Shown: positions 30,001-33,000 of the stretch, piece by piece
How positions within the stretch are numbered: position 1 is the stretch's first letter
Layout of the letters: each line of letters opens with the position of its first letter
From: Negaprion brevirostris
Lineage: Eukaryota
Direction: 5' to 3'
Length of the DNA: 64,000 bases
Assembly: GCA_030324005.1 (NCBI GenBank)
Contig: JARDVH010000084.1
Coordinates: 61,754,617-61,818,616, forward strand
Program-made: the position numbers

Positions 30001-33000
30001 GGTTTCCAGAGATCAGGGTGCCCTATAAAAGAGTGCCCTGGTTGCCAGGGCACTCTTTTATAGAGCAACTTCCTCCCTTCCCCTAATATACATATGAAAC
30101 CCCACCCCACATTACACATACAACACCCCCCTCTCCGAAATGCACACAAAGAAGCCACCTCCAATACACAGGGAACATGGAACACCCATCCCATTCCCCA
30201 AGTACATGGGGAACTACCTCCCCTCATGTACACAAGGAACCACACCCCCATGCAGCACTCCAGAAGGGGAGTCCTACTACTGCCCCGTGGCATTGCCCCC
30301 TTGCACTGCCAATGCCACGGTACTCAAATATGTCCTTTCCGCGCCCCCCCCCCCCAGGTCTGTGCTTACTTGTGCATTCCTAACAAGTTCTCTTCACCTA
30401 GTTCCCAATTTAAAAACTTGCCATGAGCCTTGCCAATGGATCCCAGTGTGGGAGAATGATACAGCGGGGAAGACTTATGACCATATATTAATATATTTAA
30501 ATGAGGTTATGACCTTCCTGTGGGATACTTTGTTACATTGATGGCAGGGGGTCAATCACGTCCCCACATCTAGTTGGCAAGATTCTCGGTCCTGGCCTCT
30601 TGTGGAATTTTGCGCCCATATCACTGGCATAAAATGCAAGAATAAGTGAGTTGTCAGAGGTTTAAATTTGTTAATGAAGCATTCCATCTTGTCACAGTAA
30701 AGCTCTCAGAATCAAATAAACACCTGCTGCCTTAAAGGAAAAGGCAGTGCTTGTTGCTTGTTGTGGAGAGGGCAATGTTCCCTATATTTAATCTTTAACC
30801 ACTGCACACCAACCTCCCCACCACCACCACCCTCCCAACCCAGATTATCTCCCAACACTCAGAGTGCAATTATAGAGGCCCGTGTATCTGCCACAAGGTT
30901 TTTAAAATTGGCAGATATGTAGATCTGCACATTGTCTTCAACCACAAGGAACAGCCAGCAAATCTGACTAATGTCATGGAAGCAGGTCTCCACAGAGATT
31001 GTGATCAAATCAAATGAATAGTCACATTTCTAAAGTTTGGGCAGAGGTGCCCTTGTTTCCGAAAACCTAAATTCCCTGCTGGGATCAGACATGAGTAAAG
31101 CCAAACCAATATTTCACTCGCATGCTGAAAGCTAACCTCTATCTCAAGCTCTGTAAATTATGGATTTAAACTTTTATTCAGCTGAACTTAATTTAATCTG
31201 AATATAAATTACCCATAATTAGATATTAGCCGTGGCTCTGTTCCATCTCCGAGTCAGATGGTTGTCGATTCAAGTCCCGTTCTGAAGACGTAAGCACAAA
31301 ATCTAGATTGATAATCCAGTGCAGTACTGAGGAAGTGCCCTCAAAGTTAGAGGCAGAAGGTCCCAAGGCATTATTTCAAAGAAAAAGAGCAGGGAGTTCA
31401 ATACATCAAGGAGAAATAGTGCCTTGGGATCTCCTGCATCTACCTTACAGGGCAGTTCCTCAGTACTTGACAGGATTATCAATCTACATTTTTTTGCCCA
31501 TATCTCCAGAACAGGACTTGAAATCACAGCCTTCTGACTCAAGGGTGGAACTGAGCCACAGCTGACATCCAATTATGGGTAATTTATATTCAGATTAATT
31601 TAGGTTCAGCTGAATAAAAGTTAAATCCACAGTTTGCAGAACACGGGATGGAATTTAGTTTCCCGTATGCAAGTGAAATACTGATGTGGCTTCATTCATG
31701 TCTGATCCCAGCAGAGAATTTAGGTTTTAGGTAATTACAGAATGTTAGTCCATACTTTAGAAATGTAACCATTTTAATTTGTCACAATCTCTAGAAGGGC
31801 ATCTACATATTAGCCAGATTTATTTGTTATTTCTAATGGTTGAGGATAATCAGCAGATCTATCTCTCCTTTAAAAGTTTATCAGATATGTGCACCTAAAC
31901 AATAGCACTCCATGATCAGTGGGAGGGGGTGAGGGAGCAGCAGTTATAGATTAAAGGCTGGATTTTCATTCCCAAGNNNNNNNNNNNNNNNNNNNNNNNN
32001 NNNNNNNNNNNNNNNNNNNNNNNNNNNNNNNNNNNNNNNNNNNNNNNNNNNNNNNNNNNNNNNNNNNNNNNNNNNNNNNNNNNNNNNNNNNNNNNNNNNN
32101 NNNNNNNNNNNNNNNNNNNNNNNNNNNNNNNNNNNNNNNNNNNNNNNNNNNNNNNNNNNNNNNNNNNNNNNNNNNNNNNNNNNNNNNNNNNNNNNNNNNN
32201 NNNNNNNNNNNNNNNNNNNNNNNNNNNNNNNNNNNNNNNNNNNNNNNNNNNNNNNNNNNNNNNNNNNNNNNNNNNNNNNNNNNNNNTAACCCATTCCCAT
32301 CCTTTGCCCTTACACCTTATTGGGTGAGGCCTAGTCACCCAATATCCGACATGAACAAGCTTCAGGAGTCACATTAAGATGAAATAATTTGTGTTCTATT
32401 TTGGCCTTTATTATATTAAAAACATCCCACTCACAAAAGCCCACTCAAAACATTTAACTCCCCTCAAGTATTCAATCCTTTATTTAAAAAAGTAAATAGA
32501 ATTCTATTCATAATTGCATACTAAAGACAGCCAATCCTTTAATAACCACTTTGAGCTATCAATCAAACCCTGAACTTAGGATCAGCTATTGAAATAATGA
32601 AAGGTTATTGAAAACAGCCAAGCATTAATAATCACATAATGATAGCCCTTGGGTAATGTCAAAAAAGAGCTATTGTAATTGTTGGAATAGATTTTTTCAA
32701 CTGTGACTTTTTTAATTTTCTTAAAGGGCTGGGGATTTTAATGAGTTCATAGTTCAACAATTCTACAATTCAACATTACAGATTTTAACCACCCTTCAAG
32801 AGTATTTACGATTGATCTAAAATGGGTTAATACCCATGGAATCTGTTTGAACTCGGCACTGAGTTCAAGTAACCCAGCTGTGTTCGGATATCCCTCATAT
32901 GCAAGTCAAGATCTGCCTCGTTCCCCTACTGGCAAAAATGAGATGTGTCAGAATTGGCAGGGAGGCCACCGGGTCCTGCCTGCTATTTTTAAAGTCCCAT

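What the first reader, a model, noticed from the sequence alone, without database searches (positions are those of the whole stretch)
30787..31955. 1.17-kb ancient foldback palindrome with a near-perfect 60-bp core
Seen: about 590 bp and 545 bp arms in inverted orientation around a ~35-bp spacer. The duplicated unit is non-repeat-looking sequence plus an internally deleted SacSINE1-like head, so it is not two independent SINE insertions. Most of the arms are clearly diverged, yet 31161-31220 vs 31571-31629 match 57/60, and this core is AT-rich and dense in TAAT/ATTA motifs. Known: long, closely spaced palindromes are usually unstable, and transcribed ones form dsRNA (ADAR or Dicer substrates). 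Inference: the identity peak suggests selection on a duplicated regulatory motif, a conserved RNA stem, or local arm-to-arm conversion.
Basis: partly seen in the sequence, partly recalled or inferred. Interest (0 to 1): 0.72.

Follow-up and report, generated by a model that had tools for sequence, protein, structure and literature searches.

The report
Old decayed inverted duplication, conserved core
This is a real but old and decayed back-to-back duplication of non-coding DNA, larger than first described and later split by an inserted element, in which one 60-base stretch has stayed unusually similar for a reason one genome cannot settle.

Summary
Arms are 30787-31377 and 31413-31955, with a 35-nt spacer. 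The 57/60 core at 31161-31220 vs 31571-31629 reproduces exactly. A variable-length scan picks that same tract, permutation P=0.002.

The left flank 30644-30791 is inverted-homologous to 33033-33178. The right arm is split at 31955/33033 by a 1077-nt insertion flanked by a TTAAA direct repeat. The true structure spans 30644-33178.

Outside the core, substitution divergence is uniform, K2P 0.23-0.32. TAAT/ATTA density matches base composition. Transitions show no G:U strand bias, so there is no RNA-stem signature. The window holds no third copy.

Best reading: an ancient in-situ fold-back or template-switch duplication decaying neutrally, with the core reset by a short arm-to-arm conversion. Constraint on the core is the main rival.

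The SacSINE1 label, genome copy number and orthologues could not be tested. This is an ordinary kind of feature, of modest interest.

The parts
30644..30786 (+).
   Evidence: Inverted homology of 30644-30791 to 33033-33178. Smith-Waterman score is 45 against 15.1 +/- 1.8 for 200 shuffles (maximum 22.5), with 105 matches in 160 columns. blastn gives 54/74, E=1.4e-8. MAFFT gives 94 invariant columns of 175.
30787..31377 (+). Left arm as given in the finding (591 nt)
   Evidence: Identity to the right arm, gaps included: 61% for 30787-31016, 75% for 31017-31160, 95% for 31161-31220, 79% for 31221-31377.
31161..31220 (+). Left copy of the high-identity core. It is 78% A+T and holds a 10-nt perfect palindrome around CAGCTG, two ~16-nt direct units, and TATAAAT at 31203.
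   Evidence: 57/60. K2P 0.035 against 0.23-0.32 elsewhere. Direct-repeat family D1 and inverted pair I8. TATAAAT position.
31229..31377 (+). It is tRNA-like by eye only and runs towards the centre.
   Evidence: No tRNA call from ARAGORN or Rfam at E<=10. The same Rfam search also misses the evident tRNA-type head of the window's abundant SINE-like family, so the negative says little. It is unrelated to that family.
31378..31412 (.). Asymmetric 35-nt spacer at the axis of the palindrome
   Evidence: (I3). It forms the loop of the predicted hairpin.
31413..31955 (-). Right arm as given in the finding (543 nt)
31571..31629 (-). Right copy of the high-identity core
   Evidence: TATAAAT lies on the - strand at 31582-31588, again 26 nt before the tRNA-like start.
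31956..33032 (.). Later insertion (X, 1077 nt, including the N run 31977-32286) that splits the right arm
   Evidence: The left arm is uninterrupted at the homologous point. TTAAA is present at 31951-31955 and again at 33033-37. CTGGATTT (31958-65) and AAATCCAG (33022-29) lie inverted just inside its ends. Its visible part has no other copy in the window. The masked part was left unread.
33033..33178 (-). Outer part of the right arm (F'), partner of 30644-30791
   Evidence: (I6).

Best explanation
A stretch of about 735 nt of non-coding DNA was copied once, in place and in inverted orientation. It consisted of roughly 585 nt of unique-looking sequence followed by about 150 nt of a 3'-truncated tRNA-like (SINE-like) segment. 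The likely mechanism is a fold-back (hairpin-primed) or template-switch repair or replication event whose axis lay inside the SINE-like segment, leaving a 35-nt asymmetric spacer.

Both arms then decayed at the neutral rate. A roughly 1.08-kb element later inserted into the right arm and created the false 'end' at 31955. At a later time a tract of about 60 nt (31161-31220 / 31571-31629) was copied from one arm to the other by short-tract gene conversion or by mismatch correction in an intrastrand hairpin, which reset its divergence.

On this reading the structure has no selected function today. If the region is transcribed, it would fold into a long imperfect hairpin as a by-product.

Shown: the inverted duplication, its true extent, the insertion, the uniform divergence and the outlier tract. 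Inferred: the fold-back origin, the neutrality, and conversion as the cause of the core.
For: - The inverted duplication is beyond chance.
- Homology continues in the same register from 30644-30791 to 33033-33178.
The 30787/31955 ends are therefore secondary.
- No direct repeat flanks the true ends 30644/33178 (by eye).
- The window has no third copy of arm, core, F or X, by blastn and by nhmmer profiles.
- Substitution divergence is homogeneous outside the core. K2P is 0.25, 0.32 and 0.23, chi-square P=0.47. Adding the core (K2P 0.035) gives P=0.005.
- A variable-length scan returns exactly the 60-column core, P=0.002.
- The edges are abrupt, about 13/21 and 15/20 identity in the adjacent columns (by eye). 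This is the shape of a conversion tract.
- A+T content does not explain it: 12.5 differences expected, 3 seen, P=0.0006 for the single window.
- There is no motif excess and no G:U bias that would point to selection.
- Arm identity (78% of aligned columns) is in the range of pairwise identity among copies of the window's main SINE-like family (mostly 70-79%), so the event is old.
- Fold-back priming and inverted duplication at breaks are described mechanisms. I saw PMC10622511, PMC7467729 and PMC11724301 as search listings and abstract starts only.
Against: - From recalled knowledge, not tested here: conversion between sequences already about 20% diverged should be rare. Yet the tract's divergence is only about one sixth of the rest, so the event must have been late.
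- The core is the most A+T-rich part of the arms, which is not what GC-biased conversion leaves. A single event need not show bias.
- Copy number in the source genome is unknown. Zero extra copies in 64 kb excludes only very abundant families.
- There is no outgroup, so constraint on the core cannot be ruled out.
- The junction microhomology expected of a fold-back event can no longer be read at this divergence.
Confidence: 0.45

Rival explanations
1. The core is held by purifying selection as a duplicated cis-regulatory module, with transcription-factor sites in both arms. The palindrome merely supplied two copies.
For: The tract has sharp edges and seven-fold lower divergence. It contains a perfect 10-nt palindrome around CAGCTG and several A+T-rich TAAT-type motifs. 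No exon was found in the 64 kb, as in a gene desert.
Against: TAAT/ATTA count equals the compositional expectation (P=0.22-0.28), and 13% of the similarly A+T-rich 60-nt windows in this window have as many. A single CAGCTG is unremarkable. No conservation, chromatin or expression data could be consulted. Keeping both copies intact needs an extra assumption.
Confidence: 0.17
2. The whole structure is one copy of a multicopy foldback-type or long-terminal-inverted-repeat non-autonomous DNA transposon. The core is a part conserved within that family.
For: Long inverted arms with a short spacer are the anatomy of foldback elements. The window holds other small palindromes and an inverted pair bracketing 1.2 kb, so hairpin-shaped elements exist in this genome. 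Copy number could not be counted genome-wide.
Against: No direct repeat flanks the true ends 30644/33178 (by eye). The outermost parts are the least conserved, with 61% identity in the 30787-31016 segment and 66% in F/F', whereas transposon ends are expected to be the best kept. The window holds no other copy.
Confidence: 0.13
3. The identity peak is a chance fluctuation or a local mutational cold spot with no special history.
For: The P value depends on the reference region: 0.0022 for the whole alignment and 0.022 for the inner part. The locus was picked because of the peak. A second patch of 52/60 sits at about 31060, and the mean maximum of shuffles is 51.9. Outside the core, A/T sites mismatch less (33/170) than G/C sites (34/131).
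Against: After allowing for base composition the single-window P is 0.0006. The variable-length scan gives 2 of 1000. Fisher P is 2e-4. The longest exact run of 28 has permutation P=0.03.
Confidence: 0.15
4. The locus is a hairpin-RNA gene. Transcription through the arms yields a long double-stranded RNA that is edited or diced, and the core is kept as a near-perfect stem or as the promoter of that transcript.
For: Predicted RNA fold of 30787-31955 is a single hairpin of -569.7 kcal/mol. The apex 31340-31450 folds with z=-7.3 (+ strand) and -6.2 (- strand). The stretch 31229-31496 folds with z=-11.0. TATAAAT lies 26 nt before the tRNA-like start in both arms, and the first T run of 4 or more on the + strand is at 31489-31495, beyond the inner hairpin. 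In the elephant shark, SacSINE1-type SINEs resemble three novel miRNA precursors (PMC5499810, passages read).
Against: Any inverted duplication folds like this. G:U-compatible transitions show no strand bias, 29 vs 36. Apart from the core, the stem has decayed at a uniform rate. Rfam gives only sub-threshold miRNA-model hits, best 19.8 bits against a gathering score of 99. The tRNA-like promoter is unverified. No expression data were available.
Confidence: 0.08
5. The palindrome is an assembly or sequencing artefact, such as a chimeric fold-back read.
For: An N run begins 21 nt beyond the right arm.
Against: Artefactual fold-backs give identical arms. Here the arms differ at 110 of 510 aligned positions plus 22 gap columns, and homology resumes beyond the N run.
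Confidence: 0.01

Closest known systems
Fold-back inversions / inverted duplications formed by hairpin priming or template switching at DNA breaks (yeast and cancer genomes; PMC10622511, PMC7467729, PMC11724301, seen as search listings and abstract starts only)
   Same: Two copies in inverted order around a short asymmetric spacer, no target-site duplication at the outer ends, and a single locus as far as the window shows.
   Different: Those cases are recent, have identical arms and often involve chromosome ends. This one is interstitial, about 0.7 kb per arm, fixed in a germ line and about 20% diverged. The junction microhomology that defines the mechanism can no longer be read.
Large sex-chromosome palindromes kept alike by arm-to-arm gene conversion (PMC8600007, PMC3723533, PMC8981503, seen as search listings and abstract starts only)
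   Same: Inverted arms around a spacer. Conversion between the arms is the proposed cause of the high-identity tract.
   Different: Those arms are larger than 10 kb and more than 99% identical throughout, and they carry genes. Here only about 60 nt of about 700 stands out and the rest has decayed. The core is A+T-rich, not the GC-enriched result described for those palindromes.
Inverted SINE pairs such as inverted-repeat Alus (PMC11263572, PMC5080714, seen as search listings and abstract starts only)
   Same: If transcribed, two inverted SINE-like segments close together would form double-stranded RNA.
   Different: Those pairs arise from two independent insertions. Here the SINE-like part is only the inner roughly 150 nt of a roughly 735-nt duplicated unit, so a single SINE-bearing segment was duplicated.
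Foldback and long-inverted-repeat non-autonomous DNA transposons (for example the Mutator/Foldback family of PMC3169594, search listing only)
   Same: Long inverted arms and a short middle.
   Different: No flanking direct repeat at the true ends, the outermost sequence is the least conserved, and no second copy lies in 64 kb. The genome-wide count is untested.
Inverted-duplication model for the birth of hairpin small-RNA genes (PMC3237417, search listing and abstract start only; SINE-related miRNA precursors in the elephant shark, PMC5499810, passages read)
   Same: A hairpin made by inverted duplication that includes SINE-like sequence.
   Different: No small-RNA evidence, no significant Rfam match, and a stem that has decayed without any sign of pairing constraint.

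Membership tests
Foldback / long-TIR non-autonomous DNA transposon | Terminal inverted repeats that reach the ends of the element | tested here: inconclusive
Inverted arms exist. The true outer parts are the least similar, 61% in the 30787-31016 segment and 66% in F/F'.
Foldback / long-TIR non-autonomous DNA transposon | Target-site duplication flanking the element | tested here: not met
   The 8 nt outside 30644 and outside 33178 share no direct repeat (by eye). At 30787/31955 the only candidates (TA, TTAA) are themselves palindromic and form part of the inverted repeat.
Foldback / long-TIR non-autonomous DNA transposon | Multiple dispersed copies in the genome | not testable with these tools
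   The window holds 0 further copies. No eukaryotic genome collection was on hand.
Inverted pair of independently inserted SINEs (IRAlu-like) | Homology confined to the SINE, with unrelated flanks | tested here: not met
   Inverted homology runs about 585 nt beyond the 5' start of the tRNA-like segment, from 31228 out to 30644.
   ARAGORN finds 0 tRNAs. Rfam gives no tRNA hit at E<=10. The same search also misses the clear tRNA-type head of the window's abundant SINE-like family. Box-like motifs were seen by eye only, against recalled consensus.
   No reference sequence of the family was available from any tool. The supplementary alignments of PMC5499810 were closed and were not requested.
Arm-to-arm converting palindrome (sex-chromosome type) | Arms of many kb with more than 99% identity along their length | tested here: not met
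   Arms are about 0.7 kb. Identity is 61-79% outside a single 60-nt tract.
miRNA / hairpin small-RNA gene | Match to a curated RNA family | tested here: not met
   The best Rfam match inside the palindrome is MIR2871, 19.8 bits against a gathering score of 99, E=0.43.
miRNA / hairpin small-RNA gene | Small RNAs mapping to the stem | not testable with these tools
   No expression data were available.
Fold-back (hairpin-primed or template-switch) inverted duplication | Inverted copy adjoining its template across a short asymmetric spacer, with no target-site duplication | tested here: met
   35-nt spacer. No direct repeat at the outer ends (by eye).
Fold-back (hairpin-primed or template-switch) inverted duplication | Microhomology or a short pre-existing inverted repeat at the turning point | tested here: inconclusive
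   The spacer shows no internal symmetry by eye. At about 20% divergence the original junction cannot be read.

The most novel reading that the evidence does not exclude
The 60-nt core is a functional upstream promoter kept in both arms. It spans about -68 to -9 of each tRNA-like start and has a TATA-like motif at -26. It would drive convergent RNA polymerase III transcription of the two SINE-derived heads. The + strand transcript would run through the axis to the T7 run at 31489-31495 and fold into an 80-bp hairpin, making this a vertebrate, SINE-born, polymerase-III-driven hairpin small-RNA gene.
Probability: 0.05. Interest if true: 0.6.

Novelty: new member of a known kind. Interest (0 to 1): 0.25.

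Why it matters
Small, old, interstitial palindromes are the fossil record of fold-back or template-switch duplication in a germ line. Such duplication is mostly studied in yeast and tumours. This locus gives a dated order of events: a SINE-like segment, then inverted duplication, then insertion into one arm, then a late homogenised or constrained tract.

If the core proved to be conserved across species, it would be an example of a regulatory or RNA element born by palindromic duplication in a cartilaginous fish. As the evidence stands it is an ordinary relic, and its main practical value is a corrected annotation of the locus.

Tried and rejected
- **tRNA/SINE identity.** ARAGORN and Rfam at E<=10 gave nothing. 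A control on an evident SINE copy also gave nothing, so these tools cannot decide.
- **Relation to the window's abundant ~370-nt SINE-like family.** An nhmmer profile gave 15 hits at E<0.001, of which 8 were the sequences it was built from. Its best hit inside the palindrome had E=7.4. Pairwise scores were at shuffle level: of 20 comparisons the best z was 4.1, and it was in the wrong orientation. Rejected.
- **Third copy in the window.** blastn and nhmmer profiles of the two arms found none. The one borderline hit, 44113-44156 at E=0.044, is a short B-box-like match only.
- **Coding potential.** I ran Pfam on 166 of 166 stop-to-stop ORFs of 70 aa or more, on 42 ORFs of 40-69 aa near the reverse-transcriptase hits, and on 150 of the 245 other ORFs of 50-69 aa. 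The remaining 95 were not scanned. Nothing lay in or next to the palindrome. A weak 'Headcase' hit at 57413-57643 (E=0.003, below cut-off) does not look like an exon on reading. I built no gene model and made no spliced join.
- **Motif enrichment and G:U bias.** Both negative.
- **Local hairpins inside each core.** Weak, z from -0.7 to -2.9.
- **Tandem repeats.** None in the arms.
- **Extension beyond 30644/33178.** No hit better than E=0.11.
- **Literature.** A search for shark + palindrome / inverted duplication / foldback / transposable found 127 papers holding at least 3 of 5 terms; none of the 10 listed concerns sharks. SacSINE1 occurs in 6 papers, and the one I searched (PMC5499810) has no occurrence of 'palindrom' or 'inverted'.
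- **Not done.**
  - I counted no copies in the source genome and looked for no orthologous loci.
  - The masked part of the insertion (31977-32286) was left unread.
  - The supplementary SINE alignments of PMC5499810, which might have allowed a test of the SacSINE1 label, were closed and not requested.
  - The protein-database, structure-prediction and atlas tools were not used, because the locus has no credible protein.
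Full report
**Setting.** The window is 64 kb of A+T-rich (about 60%) eukaryote-like DNA with 24 N runs. It has no tRNA genes by ARAGORN and no convincing exon. Pfam was run on all 166 stop-to-stop ORFs of 70 aa or more, on 42 shorter ORFs near the reverse-transcriptase hits, and on 150 of 245 further ORFs of 50-69 aa. It gave only two sub-threshold reverse-transcriptase fragments and two weak hits that look like noise. 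The window carries several old interspersed repeat families. The main one is a ~370-nt element with an evident tRNA-type head.

The repeat finder reports six colinear inverted pairs between 30903-31377 and 31413-31861.
- A local alignment of 30900-31377 against the reverse complement of 31413-31875 has 371 matches, 90 mismatches and 19 gap columns.
- A more permissive alignment reaches 30849/31925, with 400 matches in 532 columns.
- A global alignment reaches 30787/31955, where 13 of the terminal 14 bases match.
- The spacer is 31378-31412.

**The structure is larger than described.** A census of close inverted repeats in the whole window showed a pair at 30661-30713 and 33105-33157, outside the finding.
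- Followed up, 30644-30791 aligns in inverted orientation with 33033-33178. Smith-Waterman score is 45 against 15.1 +/- 1.8 for 200 shuffles (maximum 22.5), with 105 matches in 160 columns. blastn gives E=1.4e-8. MAFFT gives 94 invariant columns of 175.
- Reading the junctions, the left arm is continuous across this point.
- The right arm is interrupted after 31955 by 1077 nt (31956-33032, which includes the N run 31977-32286) and resumes at 33033.
- The pentamer TTAAA stands on both sides of the interruption. An 8-nt inverted pair (CTGGATTT / AAATCCAG) lies two to three bases inside its ends.
- This is the picture of a later insertion with a target-site duplication, with the left arm serving as the paralogous empty site.

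The sharp 'termini' at 30787 and 31955 are therefore secondary. The palindrome runs from 30644 to 33178, with arms of about 734 nt and about 684 nt (543 + 141). Beyond these points I found no further inverted homology (best E=0.11) and no flanking direct repeat (by eye). The masked part of the insertion was left unread, so the insertion cannot be classified. Its visible 746 nt have no other copy in the window.

**What the unit is.** The window holds no third copy of the arms, the core or the outer segments, by blastn or by nhmmer profiles built from the two arms. The one borderline hit (44113-44156, E=0.044) is a short B-box-like similarity. Zero extra copies in 64 kb excludes only a very abundant family.

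The inner roughly 150 nt of each arm (31229-31377 and its partner) looks tRNA-derived by eye. Neither ARAGORN nor Rfam at E<=10 supports that. The same Rfam search also fails on the clear tRNA-type head of the abundant SINE-like family, so the tools are not sensitive enough to decide. The inner arm is not a member of that abundant family.

According to PMC5499810 (abstract and passages read), SacSINE1-type elements are very numerous in the elephant shark and average 22.4% divergence from their consensus. Two independent copies would then differ from each other by much more than these arms do. In any case the duplicated unit includes about 585 nt that lie 5' of the tRNA-like start.

**Divergence pattern.** Identity including gaps is 61% (30787-31016), 75% (31017-31160), 95% (core) and 79% (31221-31377). 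The low outer value comes mainly from indels, 52 gap columns.

| Segment | K2P |
|---|---|
| 30787-31016 | 0.25 |
| 31017-31160 | 0.32 |
| 31161-31220 (core) | 0.035 |
| 31221-31377 | 0.23 |

- Without the core the segments are homogeneous (chi-square P=0.47). With it they are not (P=0.005).
- A scan over all tract lengths from 20 to 200 columns returns precisely the 60-column core. Only 2 of 1000 permutations score as high.
- With a fixed 60-column window the permutation P is 0.0022 over the whole alignment and 0.022 if only 31017-31377 is used.
- The core is the most A+T-rich stretch, but base composition does not account for the peak. From the mismatch rates of A/T and G/C sites outside the core (33/170 and 34/131), 12.5 differences are expected and 3 are seen, single-window P=0.0006.
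- The peak is therefore real at a moderate level of confidence. The locus was selected because of it, which should temper the P values.

- *Regulatory motif.* Each core has 4 TAAT/ATTA occurrences. Shuffles of the same bases average 2.4-2.7 (P=0.28 and 0.22), and 13% of the 382 comparably A+T-rich 60-nt windows in the window have as many. The motif density is not evidence. The core does hold a perfect 10-nt palindrome around CAGCTG and two ~16-nt direct units, which are unremarkable alone.
- *RNA stem.* The 1169 nt fold into one long hairpin, -569.7 kcal/mol. The apex and the inner 268 nt have z-scores of -7.3/-6.2 and -11.0. Any inverted duplication does this. Among 65 transitions, 29 would preserve pairing as G:U in a + strand RNA and 36 in a - strand RNA (P=0.46). 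Outside the core the stem has decayed at a uniform rate. Rfam gives no meaningful hit. There is no sign of selection for pairing.
- *Conversion.* A sharply bounded tract of about 60 nt, with one sixth of the surrounding divergence inside an otherwise uniformly decayed duplicate, is the expected footprint. From recalled knowledge, exchange between sequences already about 20% apart should be inefficient, which counts against it. Constraint on the core remains a serious rival.

**Most likely history.**
1. A SINE-like element sat in unique sequence.
2. A fold-back or template-switch event copied about 735 nt in inverted orientation, with its axis inside that element.
3. Both arms decayed neutrally to about 78% identity. 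That is similar to the 70-79% seen between most copies of the window's main SINE-like family, so the event is ancient.
4. A ~1.08-kb element inserted into the right arm.
5. Late in this history, the core was homogenised.

I put about 0.8 on the larger palindrome with a later insertion, about 0.65 on an in-situ origin rather than a transposon, and about 0.4 on conversion as the cause of the core. Divergence and the spacer also explain why the palindrome is tolerated. The abstract of PMC10164571 (abstract start only) states that distance and divergence between inverted repeats reduce their capacity to cause rearrangements.

**A bolder reading that is not excluded.** The core occupies about -68 to -9 relative to each tRNA-like start. 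It carries TATAAAT at -26 in both arms. On the + strand the first run of four or more T lies at 31489-31495, beyond the inner 80-nt inverted pair. A polymerase-III transcript from the left arm would therefore be a hairpin RNA. This rests on motifs that are common in A+T-rich DNA and on an unverified promoter. I give it about 5%.

**What stayed unchecked.**
- Copy number in the source genome.
- Orthologous loci.
- Expression, editing and chromatin data.
- The SacSINE1 comparison.

The supplementary alignments of PMC5499810 were closed and not requested.

**The retroelement fragments.** The two reverse-transcriptase-like fragments (1524-1925 on the - strand, 34111-34371 on the + strand) are the only retroelement or virus-like protein signal I saw. 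They lie far from the palindrome, score below Pfam's cut-off and have no solved-structure relative. I described them and did not analyse them further.

**Verdict.** This is a genuine, ancient, decayed inverted duplication, re-annotated here as larger and interrupted. It has one statistically real but unexplained island of similarity. It is an ordinary kind of feature, of modest interest unless comparative or expression data show that the core is maintained.

Noticed in passing
window 31956-33032: A 1077-nt insertion in the right arm, flanked by TTAAA on both sides, with an 8-nt inverted pair just inside its ends. 310 nt of it are masked. The visible part has no other copy in the window and no Pfam hit.
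   Followed up: partly
window 42931-43310 (-), 36962-37358 (+), 40027-40392 (+), 53667-54007 (-), 60645-60967 (+), 2064-2292 (-), 18135-18371 (-), 19648-20149 (+, split by an N run), and weaker fragments: An abundant ~370-nt interspersed family with an evident tRNA-type head. An nhmmer profile gives 15 hits at E<0.001. Copies are mostly 70-79% alike. It is unrelated to the palindrome arms.
   Followed up: partly
window 564-646 and 661-743: A second, small palindrome: 83-nt arms, 88% complementary, 14-nt spacer. There is also a direct match between 1-72 and 712-783.
   Followed up: no
window 30008-30041 and 30045-30078: A tight hairpin about 570 nt upstream of the large palindrome, with 34-nt arms and a 3-nt loop. 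It draws only sub-threshold miRNA-model hits (E=0.035-0.043, 26-29 bits against gathering scores of 80-90).
   Followed up: partly
window 42548-42634 and 43815-43902; related copy 7608-7846: An inverted pair (83-91% complementary) brackets about 1.2 kb that contains one copy of the ~370-nt SINE-like family. The same sequence recurs at 7608-7846 (89%). It may be the ends of a DNA-transposon-like element.
   Followed up: no
window 1524-1925 (-) and 34111-34371 (+): Two short reverse-transcriptase-like ORF fragments (Pfam RVT_1, E=1.4e-5 and 0.0085, both below the gathering score). Neither has a relative among solved structures. They are the only retroelement or virus-like protein signal seen. 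I described them only.
   Followed up: partly
window about 30080-30360: A C-rich, low-complexity block with loosely repeated units just left of the palindrome. It stays open in several reading frames but has no Pfam hit. TRF reports only a 13-nt unit at 30279-30310.
   Followed up: no
window, N runs: Of the 24 N runs, 8 are exactly 100 nt and 4 exactly 10 nt, typical gap sizes. Eight others measure 103-415 nt with irregular lengths. They were left unread.
   Followed up: no
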